Shown piece by piece: positions 47,102 to 58,098 of a stretch of DNA of 64,000 nucleotides. The notes under the pieces are model-generated. The model was not told the DNA's origin. It did no database searches and saw only the letters and a program-made list of their open reading frames with translations. Position 1 is the stretch's first letter. The number at the start of each line of letters is the position of its first letter. Where the stretch lies: assembly GCA_041173845.1 (NCBI GenBank), contig JBEDHZ010000001.1:425-64424 (forward strand). Reading direction: 5' to 3'. Source of the DNA: Pseudomonadota bacterium. GTDB lineage: Bacteria; Pseudomonadota; Gammaproteobacteria; Burkholderiales; Burkholderiaceae_D. The translations under genes and the position numbers were made by a program.

Positions 47102-48565
47102 TTAACGAGGCAATACCGAAGAACCCATTAAGAATTCATCGACTGCGCGCGCACATTGCCGACCTTCGCGTATAGCCCATACTACCAGTGACTGGCCGCG
47201 ACGCATGTCGCCTGCAGCAAACACTTTCGGTACCGATGTCTGGTAACAGCCCTCACCATCCGTCGTCGCCTTGGCATTACCACGCGCATCTTTATCCACC
47301 CCAAACGCTTCCAACACAGAATTAACCGGCGAAACAAAACCCATAGCCAGCAACACCAGATCTGCTTTAAGTTCGAATTCGGAACCGGCAATCTCAACCA
47401 TCTTTCCATCTTTCCACTCAACACGCGCAGCGATCAGTTTCTCAACCTTGCCGTTCTTGCCCTCAAGGCGTTTAGTAGCAACCGCCCAATCGCGTTCGCA
47501 ACCTTCTTCGTGCGAAGATGATGTGCGCATCTTGGTCGGCCAGTAAGGCCATACCAATGGCTTATTTTCAACTTCCGGCGGCTGCGGTAAAAGTTCAAAT
47601 TGAGTCACTGAGGCAGCGCCATGACGGTTCGATGTACCTACGCAGTCAGAACCCGTATCGCCACCACCAATAACTACCACGTGCTTACCAGTAGCCAACA
47701 ATTGATCCTTGAGCTTGTCACCCGCATTGACGCGATTTTGTTGCGGCAAAAATTCCATCGCATAATGCACGCCACCTAATTCACGACCAGGCACTGGCAA
47801 GTCACGCGGCCACTCAGCGCCACCGGCTACGATCACGGCATCAAACTCTTTATTCAGCTGCTCAGGTGAAATGGTTTCTTTCGATAAGCTCAGTATCTCT
47901 TTCGGAAAATCTTTACCGACAAATACGCCCGTCCGAAACTTCACACCTTCCGCCTGCATTTGCTGCACACGGCGATCGATGTGCGATTTTTCCATCTTGA
48001 AATCTGGAATGCCATAGCGCAGCAGGCCTCCAACACGATCGTTTTTCTCAAACACGGTTACGTCATGTCCAACGCGCGCCAGTTGTTGAGCCGCAGCCAT
48101 ACCCGCCGGGCCAGAACCTATGATCGCTATTTTTTTACCTGTCTTACTGCTCGGAGGTTGTGGCACGACCCAACCATTTTCCCAGCCTTTATCGATAATG
48201 AAATGCTCGATCGATTTAATACCTACCGGATCATCATTGATACCTAGAGTACAAGCAGACTCACATGGAGCGGGACAGATGCGACCCGTGAATTCCGGAA
48301 AATTATTCGTCGAATGTAAATTTTCCAAAGCCTCAAGATAGTGGCCGTTGAAAACCAAATCATTCCAGTCTGGGATGATGTTATTGACAGGACATCCGTT
48401 ATTACAAAACGGAATACCGCAATCCATACAACGCGCGCCCTGAATTTTGGCATCGGCGTCGGACAGATGCATCATAAATTCTTTGTAATGCTTGGTACGT
48501 GCCTGCGGCGCTTCGCTCGCCTCTTGAAGGCGCTGATATTCCATGAAGCCAGTAACTTTACCCAT
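47102..48565 (-). CDS. gltD: Glutamate synthase small subunit
   Basis: [55 protein letters not shown]. Confidence 0.98.
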
Positions 48566-51600: not shown

Positions 51601-53311
51601 CTTTGTAATCAAGAATCGGCTGCGACACTTCCAGTCGCATCGGTGGATTAATGTTGTTGGTATCGAGCAGATTAGGCTTAGGGCCAATGAACGAAACTAG
51701 CGACATCACCATCGCTTCGCGTATCGGATCGATAGGGGGATTCGTCACCTGCGCAAACAGCTGCTTAAAGTAATTAAAGAGCGGCTTGTTTTTATTGGAC
51801 ATGACGGCCAATGGAGAATCATTTCCCATTGAACCCGTGGCCTCTTCTGCGTTCACCGCCATCGGCGACATCAAAAATTTAATGTCTTCTTGCGTGTAAC
51901 CAAATGCTTGTTGACGGTCGAGCAGCGTCGCTGTTTCTTTACGCGACTCAGCCTCGACTTTCAGATCGTCTAACTTAATACGAACGGAATCAATCCATTG
52001 CTTGTAAGGCTTAGCATTGGCGAAGGTGTCTTTAAGTTCTTTGTCGTCAATAATGCGTCCAGCATCCAGATCGATCAAAAACATTTTGCCTGGTTGGAGA
52101 CGCCATTTGTTGATGATCTTTGATTCTGGTATCGGCAAGACACCTGATTCAGACGCCATGACTACCAGATCATCATCCGTGACTATGTAACGAGCAGGAC
52201 GCAAACCATTACGGTCTAGCGTTCCACCAATATGACGACCGTCAGTAAACGCCATAGCAGCGGGGCCATCCCATGGCTCCATCATCGCTGCATGGTATTC
52301 GTAAAATGCACGACGATTTTCATCCATCAAAGTGTGGTTTTCCCAGGCTTCTGGAATCATCATCATCATGGCTTGAGCTATCGGATAACCTGCCATCACC
52401 AATAATTCAAGCGCATTATCAAAACAGGCTGTGTCCGATTGACCTTCATAAATCAATGGAAATAACTTTTGTAAATCTTCGTTCAACACAGCGGATTTCA
52501 TCACGCCTTCACGCGCACGCATCCAGTTGAAGTTGCCTTTAACAGTGTTGATCTCACCGTTGTGTGCAAGCAGACGATACGGGTGGGCAAGCGGCCACTC
52601 AGGGAAGGTGTTCGTCGAGAAGCGTTGATGCACCAAAGCCAGCGCGGACACGCAACGCGGATCTTGCAAATCTTTGTAGTAGACGCCGACCTGATCGGCC
52701 AGTAATAAACCTTTGTAAACCACGGTTCGAGCAGACATCGATGGCACAAAAAATTCTTTACCATGCAGAAGATTTAATGCTTGGATGGCGTGACCTGAAG
52801 ATTTACGAATGACATAGAGTTTTCGCTCTAGTGCATCAGTCACCATGATGTCTTGACCGCGACCAATAAAAATTTGGCGAATCACTGGCTCTTTGTCGCG
52901 CACGGTAGGCGACATCGGCATCTCGCGATTGACGGGCACATCGCGCCACCCCAATACCACTTGCGCTTCAGCGTGAACCGCTCTTTCGATTTCTTGCTCG
53001 CAAGCTATGCGCGATGCATTTTCTTTGGGAAGAAACACCATACCCACACCGTACTCACCGGGAGGAGGCAGGGCCACACCCTGCTTCGCCATTTCTTCGC
53101 GGTAAAACTGATCGGGCACTTGAATCAATATGCCCGCGCCATCACCCATCAAAGGATCCGCGCCCACTGCACCGCGATGATCGAGGTTGTGCAGAATTTT
53201 CAAGCCTTGCTCAACTATCGAGTGACTTTTCTGACCTTTGATATGAGCGATGAATCCGACACCGCAGGCGTCGTGTTCGTTAGTCGGATCGTATAAACCT
53301 TGGGCTTTCAT
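48626..53311 (-). CDS. gltB: Glutamate synthase large subunit
   Basis: EHDACGVGF (N-terminal Cys amidotransferase), [35 protein letters not shown]. Start at ATG 53311 with GGAG 7 nt upstream. Confidence 0.98.
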
Positions 53312-53345
53312 CGCGGGACTCCACGGCATTAATAAAGAGCGTGAA

Positions 53346-53374
53346 AGGATAGTGCAATGCAATAAACAGGGCAA
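53346..53374 (-). promoter_or_regulatory. Candidate sigma70 promoter of gltBD
   Basis: Minus strand TTGCCC (53374-53369), 17-nt spacer, TATCCT (53351-53346). Confidence 0.4.
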
Positions 53375-53380
53375 CGAGAA

Positions 53381-53444
53381 AAATTAGGGTCGGATAGTTA
53401 TTTTTTAGGCGCACCAGCGCGGGGAAAATAAAATAGGGTCAGAT
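53381..53444. promoter_or_regulatory. Two direct-repeat AAAT(T)AGGGTCRGAT motifs flanking an imperfect palindrome upstream of gltB
   Basis: AAATTAGGGTCGGAT (53381-53395) and AAATAGGGTCAGAT (53431-53444), with TTATTTT..GCGC-acca-GCGC..AAAATAA between them. Confidence 0.55.
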
Positions 53445-53560
53445 TAAATTTGGTGAGGGTTTTGGCCTGAATTGATGCCAGCACAGTCATCGCTTGTGGA
53501 TTTTGGCTAGCCTTGGCCCTGCTTGAAAACATTACCCATCCCGTAAAATGCGAACGCTGA

Positions 53561-54265
53561 CTAGGAATTCTCAGCAATCGGCTGTTTACGAGGGCGACCG
53601 CGCCGCGCCGGCTCTAATCGACGATCAGTTAATTTACCCAGCCGCCGGCGAAATTCTTCCGAACCCAAAGGCCATGCCTTGCGAGTTGCAGCCTCAATTT
53701 CGGCCATTAGCTCAGATGAGCCTGACGCTTTAGCCAGCTGTTGGTAGGCAGCCTCGCGTTCAAAAGGCGTATTTCCCAGCGCCCAATAGGCAGGATGATC
53801 AGCAAGCCACACTTCCCGCCGCGCCCCAGAATGATGCGCATAACTAGACCAAGCATAGGACAGAGGGTCGGAAACTACTCCTGCAGCCACTGGCTGTTGC
53901 TCAATAAGCTGGGCACACGCCAAAAAGTAAGTATCGGCCTCCATCACGGTAGCGCGGAAGCGGCCTTCCCACAAATTACCGCTACGACCGTGACGCGCAT
54001 TGAAATACGGAACGTAATGGCGCCCTATGGCCTGCATGAGCTTTCCCAGACCTTCAGCATCGGTAGGAGTCGCCATCAATTGAACACGACTAGCCATCAA
54101 CACATAGGCATGAATAGCGACGCCCGATCTCTGCGCAGAATCGCGCAGAGAGGAAAGAAAGTATTGGCAGTCAGCGTCGTCTAAAACGATGGATTGATCG
54201 TTATTGCCGCGGGCGACGATGTGGTGAAGATGGTTGGGCACTACCAGTCTGGGCAGGCGGGCCAT
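53561..54265 (-). CDS. RAYT/Y1_Tnp (IS200-like) transposase homologue with degenerate catalytic residues and C-terminal AT-hook-like RGRPRK
   Basis: RAYT scaffold MARLPRL, HI..RGNN, HAYVLM, Y.P.FN.R..RSG.LWEGRF, Y.WSSY..H; the HUH position reads R60-V61-Q62, and the catalytic YI..NP position reads L120-I-E-Q-Q124-P. Confidence 0.88.
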   Translation of the reverse strand: MARLPRLVVPNHLHHIVARGNNDQSIVLDDADCQYFLSSLRDSAQRSGVAIHAYVLMASRVQLMATPTDAEGLGKLMQAIGRHYVPYFNARHGRSGNLWEGRFRATVMEADTYFLACAQLIEQQPVAAGVVSDPLSYAWSSYAHHSGARREVWLADHPAYWALGNTPFEREAAYQQLAKASGSSELMAEIEAATRKAWPLGSEEFRRRLGKLTDRRLEPARRGRPRKQPIAENS

Positions 54266-54328
54266 AAAATTTCAACTGATACTAGTTAGCACTATGGACA
54301 ACGTCTGCAGATCCTAGCGCGCAAAAGT

Positions 54329-54802
54329 TTAGAAAGGAAGAACGTCATCCATATCGCTCATGCTCGGTGCCTGCTTGGCGGGAGCGCGCGCGCCGGCTGA
54401 TGCAGCCTTCGCCGGGGCCGAACCATAACCCCCATCATCCATTGATGCACTGCCACCACCCATACCTTGACGACTACCTAGCATTTGCATGGTATCTGCA
54501 ATAATTTCTGTGGAATATTTTTCGATACCGTCTTTGTCGGTCCACTTACGCGTACGCAGTTTGCCCTCGACGTAGACCTGAGAGCCTTTTTTCAAGTACT
54601 GCCCAGCGATTTCAGCCAATTTGCCAAAAAACGCTATGCGATGCCATTCGGTCGCTTCTTTCTGCTCGCCTGAGGCTTTGTCTTTCCACTTATCCGTGGT
54701 TGCTACAGCAATGTTTGTCATTGCATCGCCACTAGGCATATAGCGCGTCTCAGGATCACGACCTAAATTGCCAACGATGATGACTTTATTGACCGACGCC
54801 AT
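54329..54802 (-). CDS. ssb: Single-stranded DNA-binding protein
   Basis: [38 protein letters not shown], acidic tail ending in PF. Confidence 0.98.
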
Positions 54803-55227
54803 AGCTTTCTCCTGTGATTGCGTTGATTTCAGCGAGAGGGGGAAACAGATAATCAGTGAGTGCTTGTCTGATGCTTAATACACATCATGCAAACCTCGTA
54901 GAGAGACGCATTATAAGGCACGCGACTAAAACAACGCGGCAGCTTAAGCGCAATTAGTCAGTCAAAAGCGAATTCAGCCACACGCAGCACAATGAAAACA
55001 TTGTCGAAATGCCGAATATCGAAACGCTTACACAAAACCTGAACACATTCACGCAGCCACTCTTGGCAAATGAAATAAACGCCCCACACCCAGCATAAAT
55101 AGCAAGCGGCATGGAACTAGAAGCGAACCGTGAAAACCCGTTATAGTAGCAGGCTGACTCGCATTCATTTGTCAAAAAATTTGGCAAAAAGACATTCACG
55201 CGAGAGTAAATCGATCTGGACATCCGC

Positions 55228-58098
55228 ATGGAAGAAATTCGTATTCGTGGTGCACGCACTCACAACCTGAAAAACATCAGTCTTGATCTGCCACGTAACA
55301 AACTCATCGTTATCACCGGTTTATCCGGCTCGGGAAAATCGTCACTCGCGTTCGACACGCTGTATGCCGAAGGCCAGCGTCGCTACGTAGAATCGTTGTC
55401 GGCATACGCACGTCAATTTCTTCAGCTAATGGAAAAACCCGACGTCGACATGATCGAAGGTTTATCGCCTGCCATTTCGATAGAACAAAAAGCGACTTCG
55501 CATAACCCACGCTCTACAGTGGGCACAGTCACCGAAATTCATGATTACCTGCGCTTGTTATTTGCGCGCGTAGGCACACCCTATTGTCCGGACCATCCAG
55601 AAAATCCGCTCGCTGCGCAATCGGTTTCGCAAATGGTAGATACGGCCATGGCTATGCCGGAAGACACCAAGCTGATGATTATGGCCCCCGTGGTGGCTAA
55701 CCGCAAAGGTGAGCACAGCGATTTATTTCAAGCGATGCAAGCGCAAGGCTTCGTTCGCTTTCGTATACAAAGCGGCACCTTAGCGGCGAAAATCTATGAA
55801 GTTGATGATCTGCCTAAACTCAAAAAAACAGAAAAGCACACGATTGATGTCGTCATTGATCGCGTAAAAGTTCGCAGCGATATCAAACAACGTCTAGCAG
55901 AGAGTTTTGAAACAGCTTTACGTATAGCTGAAGGACGCGCCATCGCACTGGAGATGGACACAGGTCATGAGCATATTTTTTCGAATAAGTTTGCGTGCCC
56001 CGTTTGCGGCTATTCACTACAAGAACTCGAGCCGCGACTATTTTCATTCAATAACCCGATGGGTGCGTGCCCAGAATGTGATGGACTGGGACATATAGAA
56101 TTTTTTGATCCAAAACGCATCGTCGCGTTTCCCAATCTTTCACTCGCTTCAGGTGCAGTCAAGGGATGGGATAGACGCAATCAGTTTTATTTTCAAATGC
56201 TGTCATCATTAGCCAAGCATTATGAATTTGATCTTGATCTGCCCTTCGAACAGTTGCCGGAAAAAGCGCAACAAGCTGTTCTATTTGGCTCCGGCAAAGA
56301 AAAAATTCCCTTCGCTTATGTTAACGAGCGCGGCCGCACCGTCATCAAAGAACACACTTTTGAAGGCGTCGTCCCCAATCTGCAACGCCGCTATCACGAA
56401 ACTGATTCGATGGCGGTCAAAGAAGAATTGGCGAAATTCATCAATGAAAAAGAATGTCCGGAATGTCATGGTGCACGCTTACGAGTTGAAGCGCGCTTTG
56501 TCAAAGTGGGCGAAGGCTCGCAGCAACGTGCCATATTTCAGGTGGCCGAAATGCCACTGCGCGATACATTAGATTTTTTTGAGAAATTGAAATTGCGCGG
56601 CGCAAAAAAAGAAATCGCCGACAGAATCATCAAAGAAATTATCTCGCGCCTTAAATTTCTTAACAATGTCGGACTAGATTATTTATCACTGCACCGCAGT
56701 GCTGACACCTTATCTGGTGGAGAAGCTCAACGTATACGACTGGCGTCACAAATTGGTTCTGGTTTGACCGGCGTGATGTACGTTCTTGATGAACCCTCCA
56801 TCGGTTTGCACCAGCGCGACAATGATCGCCTCATCACTACTCTCAAACACTTACGCGATATTGGTAACACCGTACTCGTCGTTGAACATGATGAAGATGC
56901 TATTCGTAGCGCTGATTACATTGTCGACATGGGCATGGGTGCTGGCGTGCATGGTGGCGAGGTCGTTGCTCAGGGCGGTATTAGTGACATACTTAAAAAT
57001 AAAAAATCACTCACAGCTCAATACCTAAATGGCAATCTCGCTATTGAAGTCCCTCAGCAGCGCACGATTGCCGACAGTAAAAAACTGCTGGTAATCAACG
57101 GCGCCGAAGGTAACAACCTTAAGTCTGTGAATCTTGAAATACCTGTTGGTTTGCTGACGTGCGTAACCGGCGTATCGGGCTCAGGCAAATCAACGCTGAT
57201 TAACGATACGCTGCATCATGTGCTGGCGCGCCATTTGTATGGCTCACAAGCAGAACCTGCGCCGCACGAAAGCGTCACGGGCTTAGAGCATTTTGATAAA
57301 GTCATTTCAGTTGATCAGGCGCCTATTGGTCGAACACCTCGCTCGAATCCGGCGACTTACACGGGCCTTTTCACCCCTATCCGTGAATTATTTTCGACCG
57401 TTCCTCAAGCCAAAGAACGTGGCTACTCGGCTGGTCGCTTCTCGTTCAACGTCAAAGGTGGTCGCTGCGAAGCCTGTCAAGGTGATGGTGTCATCAAAGT
57501 TGAAATGCATTTTCTACCCGATGTGTATGTACCTTGCGACGTTTGTCACGGCAAACGGTATAACCGCGAGACCTTAGAAATTCAGTACAAGGGTAAAAAT
57601 ATTTCCGAAGTATTGGGCATGACCGTTGAGGATGCCCATGTATTTTTCAAGCCGGTTCCACTGATTGCTCGCAAACTACAAACCTTGCTTGATGTTGGTC
57701 TGGGCTACATACGTTTGGGTCAGAGTGCTACAACGCTTTCGGGTGGCGAAGCACAGCGCGTTAAGCTATCTCTGGAATTATCCAAACGCGATACCGGTCG
57801 CACGCTCTACATTCTTGATGAGCCCACCACTGGTTTACATTTTCACGACATTGCTCTGTTATTGAAAGTCATACATCGCTTGCGCGATCAAGGTAACACC
57901 TTAGTGACCATTGAGCACAATCTGGATGTCATCAAAACAGCCGATTGGATTGTCGATCTGGGTCCGGAAGGTGGCGCGGGCGGCGGTCAAATCATCGCCT
58001 CAGGAACACCCGAGCAAGTGGCTAAAAATCCCGCTAGCGTGACCGGTAAATATCTTGCGCCATTACTAGTGACCAAAAAAGAGAAAAAGCGCGCTTAA
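55228..58098 (+). CDS. uvrA: Excinuclease ABC subunit A
   Basis: [46 protein letters not shown], zinc-finger CxxC pairs. Confidence 0.98.

What the first reader, a model, noticed from the sequence alone, without database searches (positions are those of the whole stretch)
53561..54265. Catalytically dead but intact RAYT transposase homologue upstream of gltBD: candidate domesticated regulator of nitrogen assimilation
Seen: a full 234-aa ORF with no stops or frameshifts and a well-preserved RAYT scaffold, in which the metal-binding HUH is R60-V-Q62 (HAYVLMASRVQL versus typical HAYVLMxNHxHL), the nucleophile Tyr position is L120, and the following Asn is Q124 (QLIEQQPVAAG versus RYIExNPVRAG). 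A C-terminal RRGRPRK AT-hook-like tail is present. There is no tnpB and no REP array; the gene is co-oriented with gltB, 249 bp upstream, between ssb and gltB. Established: HUH histidines and the Tyr are essential for Y1 transposase chemistry. My unverified recollection is that other Burkholderiales carry a gene annotated 'transposase' at this position. Inference: selective loss of only the catalytic residues points to domestication as a DNA-hairpin, ssDNA or RNA-binding factor, plausibly regulating gltBD, that pipelines would mislabel as a transposase.
Basis: partly seen in the sequence, partly recalled or inferred. Interest (0 to 1): 0.8.

Follow-up and report, generated by a model that had tools for sequence, protein, structure and literature searches.

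The report
Dead transposase kept at gltB promoter
An intact gene descended from a single-strand-DNA transposase has lost its DNA-cutting residues yet is kept by selection, together with two of its former transposon-end sites built into the glutamate synthase (gltBD) promoter, so it most likely now works as a DNA-binding host factor rather than as a mobile element.

Summary
The 234-aa ORF at 53561-54265(-) is intact, has the TnpA-REP fold, and carries R60-V-Q62, L120 and Q124 where orthologues have H-u-H, Tyr and Asn.

It is not a lone decayed copy. The gene is a TIRYT/TIRtron-type Y1 transposase fixed directly upstream of gltB across Burkholderiales (115 of 127 loci), and 148 of 151 genomes of the family carry it. 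Most orthologues at this site keep HUH/Tyr. The window's genus forms one well-supported clade that lost them, and other lineages lost them independently.

The dead clade is under purifying selection (dN/dS 0.05-0.23). It has lost the left-end GGGGWSAS motifs. It keeps the right-end pair (TCTGACCC, 49 bp, TCCGACCC) at fixed spacing from the inferred gltB -35/-10 hexamers. That pair stays at gltB even where the gene sits 4-19 kb away, and it is the only intergenic site of its kind in this genome.

Best reading: an exapted, non-catalytic DNA-binding protein acting on its former transposon end at the gltBD promoter. Binding and regulation are inferred, not shown.

This scan reached the same reading earlier on other genomes. 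I found no published description.

The parts
53561..54265 (-). Intact 234-aa ORF: a catalytically dead TIRYT-type Y1/HUH transposase homologue
   Evidence: single copy in the own genome
54080..54088 (-). Codons 60-62, R-V-Q, in place of the metal-binding H-u-H
   Evidence: Alignment with intact orthologues. H60->R is fixed in 96% of the dead clade.
53894..53908 (-). Codons 120-124, L-I-E-Q-Q, in place of Y-I-E-L-N (nucleophile Tyr and metal-site Asn of the Y---NP signature)
   Evidence: Position 120 varies within the clade (L, M, W, F, V; Tyr in L033).
53585..53605 (-). Codons 221-227, RRGRPRK: an AT-hook-like GRP tail in a disordered C-terminus
   Evidence: Invariant R222 G223 R224 P225 K227. 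pLDDT is below 50 at residues 218-234. The tail is present in intact and mobile relatives.
53436..53443 (-). Right-end motif 1, TCTGACCC, followed by an A/T-rich tract; about -101 relative to the inferred gltB transcription start
   Evidence: conserved while the spacer varies
53387..53394 (-). Right-end motif 2, TCCGACCC, followed by TAATTTTT; 12 nt upstream of the inferred -35 (about -52)
53369..53374 (-). Inferred gltB -35 hexamer, TTGCCC (TTGAAx in most relatives)
   Evidence: Phylogenetic footprint. Not called by the strict consensus scan.
53346..53351 (-). Inferred gltB -10 hexamer, TATCCT, 17 nt after the -35 and inside the conserved TTGCATTGCACTATCC block
54266..54328 (.). 63-nt ssb-to-gene spacer. 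It has no left-end GGGGWSAS motif and no conserved promoter, which suggests co-transcription with ssb.
   Evidence: 0 of 30 dead-clade loci have a left motif
54329..54802 (-). ssb, co-oriented, directly upstream
   Evidence: PF00436, 137.8 bits
48626..53311 (-). gltB (glutamate synthase large subunit), counted from the conserved ATG (MKAQGLYD)
47102..48565 (-). gltD (glutamate synthase small subunit)
   Evidence: Fer4_20 + Pyr_redox_2

Best explanation
The gene is what remains of a TIRtron, a small transposon that encodes a RAYT-like Y1/HUH transposase (TIRYT) flanked by inverted repeats carrying GGGGWSAS. The TIRtron inserted directly upstream of gltB in an ancestor of many Burkholderiales and became fixed there.

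In the window's genus the protein lost the metal-binding HUH (now R-x-Q/H), the nucleophile Tyr and the Asn. The left end of the element was lost too, so the protein can no longer cut or move DNA. The protein scaffold, its C-terminal extension and its RGRP tail stayed under strong purifying selection. So did the two right-end motifs, which sit at fixed distances (about -101 and -52) from the inferred gltBD promoter.

Most likely mechanism: the protein is now a non-catalytic, sequence-specific DNA-binding factor, probably co-transcribed with ssb. It would occupy its former transposon end at the gltBD promoter, with the GRP tail reading the adjoining A/T tracts, and so modulate gltBD transcription.

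Shown here: descent, catalytic loss, selection, synteny, motif architecture and geometry.
Inferred: that the protein binds the pair (about 0.6), and that binding changes gltBD expression (about 0.4).
For: - Fold and descent. AF2 pLDDT is 85.8 and the top Foldseek hit is 4er8 TnpA-REP. The sub-threshold sequence matches are to Y1_Tnp and REP_Tyr_transpos.
- Same-site orthologues. 115 of 127 loci are co-oriented with gltB. The gene is present in 148 of 151 genomes of the family and 18 of 18 of the genus, mostly in one copy.
- Catalytic state. 76 of 121 unique proteins are intact. The window's clade (24 rows, SH-aLRT 100, stem branch 0.66) is all R-x-Q/H, and all but L033 are non-Tyr. Supported branches force at least 5 changes of the intact label.
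- Selection. dN/dS is 0.05-0.23 in the dead clade, including 0.05-0.06 for the window's closest pairs. 64 positions are conserved in both dead and intact groups. The only fixed switches are H60->R and Q18->A.
- Motifs belong to the element. A 6-copy mobile relative ends in a perfect 21-bp TIR, AAATGGGGTCAGACACCATTT. Relatives outside the order that are not gltB-linked carry the motif about 70 bp upstream in 21 of 27 loci, and many carry it at the 3' end. It fits the published GGGGWSAS consensus.
- Ends. A left motif is present in 47 of 69 intact loci and 0 of 30 dead-clade loci. A right motif is present in 60 of 69 and 29 of 30.
- Promoter geometry. Motif 1 to motif 2 is 48-49 bp in 59 of 59 loci. 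Motif 2 to the GCACTAT anchor is 31-32 nt in 69 of 76. The motifs are footprinted while the spacer between them varies.
- The pair follows gltB. It stays at gltB where the gene is 3.8-19 kb away or inverted.
- Specificity. The pair is the only intergenic site of its kind in this genome. The strict pair pattern hits 87 of 151 family genomes, against 1 for the reversed control.
Against: - There are no binding, expression or knockout data.
- Characterised Y1 transposases recognise single-stranded hairpins, not duplex operators. TIRYT biochemistry is unknown.
- Because the pair stays at gltB when the gene is displaced, it could be a host promoter element (UP-like A/T tracts) or the site of another factor.
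- All gltB-linked loci descend from one insertion. Co-occurrence counts are therefore not independent.
- Intact orthologues occupy the same site, so catalytic loss is not what created the linkage.
- No strong Shine-Dalgarno sequence or own promoter is seen for the gene.
- The gltB -35/-10 assignment rests on conservation only.
Confidence: 0.5

Rival explanations
1. Frozen accident with an unrelated function. The protein serves some other host role, such as the ssDNA or replication-linked role usually suspected for single-copy RAYTs, here perhaps coupled to ssb. The gltB linkage persists only because the old right end became part of the gltB promoter, where it acts as UP-like A/T elements or as the site of another regulator.
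For: The pair stays with gltB, not with the gene, when the two are separated. The gene abuts ssb with a 20-100 nt unconserved spacer in the dead clade. Intact orthologues at the same site show that the linkage does not require a binding-only protein. RAYTs in general are single-copy, vertically inherited and of unknown function (PMC5581495).
Against: The motifs are the element's own end sequences. The family sample found the gene in 148 of 151 genomes, and the 3 without it also lack glutamate synthase, although adjacent genes can be lost in a single deletion. No other intergenic copy of the site exists in this genome for the protein to act on.
Confidence: 0.27
2. Transposon immunity. A dead transposase that still binds TIRs acts as a dominant-negative repressor against incoming active TIRtrons of the same family, and the gltB site is incidental.
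For: Active multi-copy relatives with the same end motif exist in the order. The own genome has no second copy of the family. TIR recognition surfaces appear to be retained.
Against: Most lineages keep a catalytically intact copy at the same site, which would not give immunity in this way. The fixed promoter geometry is not explained. There is no direct evidence.
Confidence: 0.1
3. Still an enzyme. Other residues, such as the conserved H14/H15/H52 or Y113, replace HUH and Tyr, and the protein still cleaves DNA.
For: H14, H15, H52, Y84 and Y113 are conserved in the clade.
Against: The same residues are equally conserved in intact orthologues, so they are scaffold residues and not replacements. 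Position 120 varies freely within the clade. The left end needed for excision is gone.
Confidence: 0.04
4. Recent decay. The gene is a pseudogene in the making with no function.
For: Family scores are below curated cut-offs. The stem branch is long.
Against: dN/dS is 0.05-0.23 across a clade whose synonymous sites are near saturation. The ORF was found in all 18 genus genomes searched, with one in-frame TAA (G003) and two copies cut by contig ends. Conservation in the dead clade is as high as in the intact clade.
Confidence: 0.02

Closest known systems
TIRYT / TIRtron (Di Nocera, De Gregorio & Rocco 2013, PMC3733652); roughly TnpA-Y1 subclass 2.1/2.1.1 of Quentin et al. 2018 (PMC6006769)
   Same: It is a RAYT-like protein with a conserved C-terminal extension. 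The cognate flanking motif fits GGGGWSAS (GGGGTCAG). There is no REP/REPIN population. It is mostly proteobacterial.
   Different: All published TIRYTs keep HUH and Tyr, and this one has neither. Only the right-end motifs survive, as a direct pair. The element is fixed at one chromosomal site (the gltB promoter) across an order. The published searches did not report that linkage.
E. coli TnpA-REP / RAYT (PDB 4ER8; NCBIfam NF047646)
   Same: This is the best structural match (Foldseek E 2.7e-7, TM 0.74 on the target). Both are single-copy, vertically inherited, 'domesticated' Y1 transposases.
   Different: Identity is 14%. The NF047646 score is 46 against a cut-off of 80. There are no REP hairpins or BIMEs. 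It has an extra C-terminal region of about 70 aa with an RGRP tail. The catalytic residues are missing.
IS200/IS605 TnpA (IS608, ISDra2; Pfam PF01797)
   Same: It has the HUH/RRM-like core fold.
   Different: It scores below the Pfam gathering threshold. There is no tnpB. It has duplex-type TIRs rather than subterminal hairpins. It is not mobile here.
RAYT groups of Bertels, Gallie & Rainey 2017 (PMC5581495)
   Same: It shows the same housekeeping-like distribution: about one copy per genome, vertical descent and purifying selection.
   Different: That work stresses a catalytic centre shared with IS200. It does not describe dead members or a promoter-integrated site.
Eukaryotic transposase-derived DNA-binding factors (e.g. 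DAYSLEEPER, hAT-derived; PMC3499209)
   Same: The logic is the same: a transposase loses its catalytic function, keeps DNA recognition and becomes a host factor.
   Different: The superfamily and kingdom are different. Here the presumed operator is the element's own end, still in place. This is analogy only.

Membership tests
Y1/HUH transposases (IS200/IS605 TnpA, Pfam PF01797) | HUH/RRM-like core fold | tested here: met
   AF2 pLDDT 85.8, pTM 0.83. Foldseek hits 4er8, 2xma, 2vjv and others with probability 1.00.
Y1/HUH transposases (IS200/IS605 TnpA, Pfam PF01797) | His-hydrophobic-His metal site | tested here: not met
   R60-V-Q62 opposite HLH/HVH of the orthologues
Y1/HUH transposases (IS200/IS605 TnpA, Pfam PF01797) | Catalytic Tyr on helix alpha-D (class 2 signature Y---NP) | tested here: not met
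   L120---Q124-P125 (signature from PMC6006769)
Y1/HUH transposases (IS200/IS605 TnpA, Pfam PF01797) | Score above the Pfam gathering threshold | tested here: not met
   16.9 bits against 23
RAYT / TnpA-REP (NCBIfam NF047646) | Score above the curated equivalog cut-off | tested here: not met
   46.4 bits against 80
RAYT / TnpA-REP (NCBIfam NF047646) | Flanking REP hairpins and a genome-wide REP/REPIN population | tested here: not met
   The motif pair is unique in the 2.42-Mb genome. The extended motif has 4 hits, 2 of them here and 2 elsewhere (one checked, in coding DNA).
RAYT / TnpA-REP (NCBIfam NF047646) | Single copy, vertical inheritance | tested here: met
TIRYT / TIRtron | RAYT-like protein with a conserved C-terminal extension | tested here: met
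   Residues 128-228 are conserved in dead and intact members.
TIRYT / TIRtron | Gene flanked on both sides by inverted repeats carrying GGGGWSAS | tested here: not met
   In the window only the right-end pair is present. The left motif is absent in 0 of 30 loci of the clade. The feature is met in 47 of 69 intact orthologous loci and in the mobile relative.
TIRYT / TIRtron | HUH and Tyr conserved (reported for all described TIRYTs) | tested here: not met
AT-hook DNA-binding motif | GRP core flanked by basic residues in a disordered segment | tested here: met
   RRGRPRK at 221-227 with pLDDT below 50; invariant in the family. Minor-groove binding itself cannot be tested here.
Transcription factor of gltBD | Binds an operator at the promoter and changes transcription | not testable with these tools
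   Only the site geometry is shown.

The most novel reading that the evidence does not exclude
The former transposase is the dedicated trans-acting regulator or architectural factor of the gltBD promoter throughout Burkholerdiales-type lineages that carry it. This would be a bacterial case of a transposase exapted into a transcription factor, with the transposon's own terminal repeat still in place as the operator. Catalysis would be dispensable, which would explain why it has been lost repeatedly. Dead TIRYT-like proteins (99 of the 149 nearest 50%-identity cluster representatives lack HUH, Tyr or Asn) would then be a large unrecognised class of DNA-binding host proteins.
Probability: 0.35. 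Interest if true: 0.8.

Novelty: new variant of a known kind. Interest (0 to 1): 0.63.

Why it matters
What RAYT/TIRYT-type 'domesticated' transposases do for their hosts has been unknown since they were described.

This locus offers a concrete, testable answer for one large branch. The gene is nearly universal in a bacterial family. It has been fixed beside one central nitrogen-assimilation operon since an ancestor of many Burkholderiales. Its own end motifs are built into that operon's promoter at fixed spacing. Natural alleles that have lost catalysis remain under strong selection, which separates the selected function from transposition chemistry.

Annotation pipelines label the gene 'putative transposase'. 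That label hides a probable host DNA-binding factor.

Cultured relatives carry both dead and intact alleles. Dead or partly dead: Undibacterium baiyunense, U. amnicola, Noviherbaspirillum galbum. Intact: Collimonas, Herbaspirillum. Ordinary genetics can therefore settle the question.

Tried and rejected
- **PDB sequence searches.** phmmer of the protein against PDB sequences found nothing relevant. A profile search gave only marginal Y1 hits. The fold search was needed.
- **Terminator between the gene and gltB.** None was predicted, and the RNA fold of the spacer is no better than shuffles (z = +1.09).
- **Promoter scan.** The strict sigma-70 scan called no promoter in 53250-55300. The gltB -35/-10 assignment therefore rests on the phylogenetic footprint only.
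- **LexA box.** None was found in the uvrA-ssb spacer.
- **C-terminal region as an independent domain.** Folded alone, residues 128-234 gave pTM 0.35. The region packs on the core rather than forming a separate domain, so I did not search the model against PDB.
- **A regulon of further sites in the own genome.** The extended motif has two hits outside this locus. The one I inspected lies inside a coding region, and the other does not resemble the promoter sites.
- **A recruited replacement nucleophile.** Y113 lies on the same helix but is equally conserved in intact orthologues. Rejected.
- **gltB promoter in a genome without the gene.** G023 has only a degenerate resemblance to the motifs. 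This is a single case and no conclusion is drawn.
- **Literature.** Searches on gltB with IS200/transposase, RAYT with glutamate synthase, and inactive Y1 transposase found no description of this arrangement.

Full report
**1. Observation**

The minus-strand ORF at 53561-54265 is intact: 234 aa, ATG start, and the conserved N-terminus MARLPRLVVP.

ssb (PF00436) ends 63 nt upstream. gltB (GATase_2, Glu_syn_central, Glu_synthase, GXGXG) begins at the conserved ATG at 53311, 249 nt downstream. gltD follows. All are on the same strand.

The sequence matches to the transposase families are real but below the curated cut-offs: Pfam Y1_Tnp scores 16.9 against 23 bits, and NCBIfam REP_Tyr_transpos scores 46.4 against 80. 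The predicted structure is confident (pLDDT 85.8, pTM 0.83). Only residues 218-234, the RGRP tail, are disordered. The best PDB match is E. coli TnpA-REP bound to a REP hairpin (4er8, E 2.7e-7, TM 0.74 on the target), followed by the ISDra2 and IS608 TnpA structures.

**2. What the relatives show**

The window comes from a 2.42-Mb freshwater MAG in 291 contigs. Nearby public records are labelled Burkholderiaceae or Oxalobacteraceae bacterium. The gene is single copy there. It was found in 18 of 18 genomes of the genus and in 148 of 151 genomes sampled from the family, mostly once per genome.

I collected 127 loci from the genus, from named genomes and from an even sample of the order. In 115 of them the homologue lies co-oriented with gltB, with roughly 130-600 nt between its stop codon and the gltB start. 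Two of the exceptions are contig ends.

Most orthologues read H-u-H, Tyr and Asn (PNHLHLL ... CSRYIELNPV; 76 of 121 unique proteins). All 30 loci of the window's genus read R-x-Q or R-x-H, and all but one (L033) have a non-Tyr residue at position 120.

In a maximum-likelihood tree the genus forms one clade: 24 unique rows, SH-aLRT 100, on a long stem of 0.66 changes per site. It is nested among Undibacterium-like Oxalobacteraceae. The rest of the tree groups by genus, as expected for vertical descent. Other lineages lost HUH and/or Tyr separately. Well-supported branches force at least 5 changes of the 'intact' label, and parsimony counts 14.

Outside Burkholderiales the best homologues in 27 gammaproteobacterial genomes are intact in 26 cases and are never next to gltB. 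The gltB linkage is therefore one old insertion, inherited vertically. Loss of catalysis came later and happened repeatedly.

**3. Selection**

Within the dead clade, pairwise Nei-Gojobori dN/dS is 0.05-0.23 for pairs with dS below 1.2. For the window against its nearest relatives it is 0.05-0.06 at dS 0.57-0.82.

Intact same-site orthologues give a median of 0.30 over 109 pairs, and 0.05-0.10 for most of the closest pairs listed. Many of those comparisons are near saturation.

Per-column conservation in the dead clade is as high as in the intact group, both in the core and in the C-terminal 100 residues. 64 positions are conserved in both groups. The only cleanly fixed switches are H60->R and Q18->A. 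Position 120 drifts within the clade (L, M, W, F, V; Tyr in L033). Y113, on the same helix, is equally conserved in intact proteins, so it is not a recruited nucleophile. Decay and hidden catalysis are both unlikely.

**4. The flanks: a transposon end built into a promoter**

I tested that lead.

Across loci, the commonest 8-mers downstream of the gene are TCTGACCC and TCTGTCCC. Their reverse complement, GGGTCAGA, is the commonest upstream. This matches the GGGGWSAS motif that Di Nocera et al. reported in the inverted repeats of 'TIRtrons', RAYT-like genes (TIRYTs) flanked by TIRs instead of REPs (PMC3733652). Quentin et al. equate these with their subclass 2.1 (PMC6006769).

A relative present in six copies in one genome of the order settles the boundaries. 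The copies are identical from AAATGGGGTCAGACACCATTT to its perfect inverted complement at the 3' end of the gene.

At gltB-linked loci the architecture is as follows:
- One or two GGG[TA]C[AG]GA motifs lie 30-120 nt upstream of the gene.
- Downstream lie two direct motifs, each followed or preceded by an AATTAA-type tract.
- The motif-to-motif distance is 48-49 bp in 59 of 59 loci.
- Motif 2 ends 31-32 nt before a conserved GCACTAT block in 69 of 76 loci.

The alignment reads as motif 2, then 12 nt of A/T, then TTGAxx, then 17 nt, then TATyCT. I take TTGAxx and TATyCT to be the gltB -35 and -10 hexamers. In the window these are 53374-53369 and 53351-53346. That places the motifs near -52 and -101. 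The assignment is by conservation only, because the strict consensus scan calls nothing there.

**5. What changed in the dead clade, and what did not**

- A left-end motif is present in 47 of 69 intact loci, 0 of 30 dead-clade loci and 5 of 16 loci of the other loss lineages.
- A right-end motif is present in 60 of 69, 29 of 30 and 13 of 16 respectively.
- Within the dead clade the two right motifs and the promoter block are footprinted, while the 22-nt stretch between the A/T tracts and the 5' leader vary freely.
- Upstream, ssb is followed by 20-100 unconserved nucleotides and then the ATG. The gene is therefore probably transcribed with ssb.
- In the own genome the pair is unique. Only four matches to the extended motif exist: two are here, the one inspected lies in coding DNA, and the other is not promoter-like.
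- In the family sample the strict pair pattern hits 87 of 151 genomes, against 1 for the reversed control, and usually once per genome.

**6. Natural experiments**

In four genomes the homologue is not adjacent to gltB. In two Undibacterium species it lies 14-19 kb away on the same strand. In one genome it lies 3.8 kb away, and in one it is inverted. In all four the motif pair and promoter block remain directly upstream of gltB. The pair is therefore maintained as part of the gltB control region, and any action of the protein on it must be in trans.

The three family genomes without the gene also have no glutamate synthase. PF01645 is absent there, while the control search finds it in 14 of 14 reference genomes. 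Adjacent genes can be lost in one deletion or one assembly gap, so I give this little weight.

**7. Mechanism**

- Shown: descent from a TIRtron, loss of all three catalytic residues and of the left end, purifying selection on the protein, and selective retention of the right-end pair at fixed promoter geometry.
- Inferred: the protein still recognises its former end. The GRP tail is a candidate reader of the adjacent A/T tracts, and Arg60 possibly stands in for the metal's charge. Occupancy near -52 and -101 would modulate gltBD transcription.
- My odds: about 0.9 that it is a selected non-catalytic protein, about 0.6 that it binds the pair, and about 0.4 that this controls gltBD.

Rivals:
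- An unrelated host function, with the pair serving as a promoter element or another factor's site.
- TIRtron immunity by a dominant-negative binder.
- Residual catalysis.
- Decay.

The last two are contradicted.

**8. Comparison and novelty**

The closest known kind is TIRYT/TIRtron. The window's gene fails three of its defining features (HUH, Tyr, TIRs on both sides), so it is a derivative and not a functional member. It also fails the RAYT definition, having no REPs and a score below the cut-off.

Published surveys state that HUH and Tyr are conserved in all members they analysed. Bertels et al. describe RAYTs as domesticated but with an intact catalytic centre. I found no paper that links this family to gltB or that describes dead members.

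Among the 149 best 50%-identity cluster representatives, only 50 keep HUH, Tyr and Asn together. The query profile was built from dead sequences, which biases the ranking.

Earlier follow-ups in this scan reached the same reading on other genomes. My analysis was done independently, apart from the motif lead.

**9. Limits**

All gltB-linked loci share one origin, so counts across them are not independent. The C-terminal region folded alone gave a poor model (pTM 0.35), and I did not use it.

Noticed in passing
L134-L137 (G233:C1, four of six copies): An active-looking, multi-copy TIRtron of about 790 bp. The copies are identical between perfect 21-bp inverted repeats (AAATGGGGTCAGACACCATTT). 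The right repeat overlaps the 3' end of the transposase gene. One copy has tandem extra left ends.
   Followed up: partly
L047, L065, L067, L083, L096 (Undibacterium and relatives), about 40-60 nt upstream of the gene: This is a second, independent dead clade (RFH or RLH, with Met or Leu at the Tyr position), displaced 14-19 kb from gltB. It has a conserved CTACAATGTCCCCAATTAA upstream: a good -10 hexamer (TACAAT) fused to a motif-1-like site. This looks like a possible autoregulatory operator.
   Followed up: partly
G136, G175, G033 (family f15, genus g22) and G172, from the pattern searches: Some genomes hold many dispersed copies of TCTGACCCGGGTTT...CGTGTCTGACCC-type pairs. These are REP/MITE-like families built from the same end motif. 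Such families are absent from the window's genome.
   Followed up: no
P0121-P0269 (50%-identity cluster representatives): About two thirds of the nearest representatives of this protein family lack HUH, Tyr or Asn but keep the GRP tail. This suggests a large, diverse set of non-catalytic TIRYT-like proteins whose genomic contexts are unknown. The ranking is biased by the dead query profile.
   Followed up: partly
G209, G379 (genus g18) and G443, same family: These three near-complete genomes have neither the transposase-derived gene nor any glutamate synthase (PF01645). Either the whole region was lost or the genomes use GDH-only ammonium assimilation.
   Followed up: partly
window 53864-53872 (+): A third exact AGGGTCGGA lies inside the ORF (codons for V-S-D-P). 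It has the same orientation as the two promoter motifs. The residues are not conserved in relatives, so it is probably chance.
   Followed up: partly
window 53352-53368 (-): The block TTGCATTGCAC, between the inferred -35 and -10 of gltB, is nearly invariant across genera. It may be the site of a further, conventional regulator.
   Followed up: no
I did not examine it.
   Followed up: no
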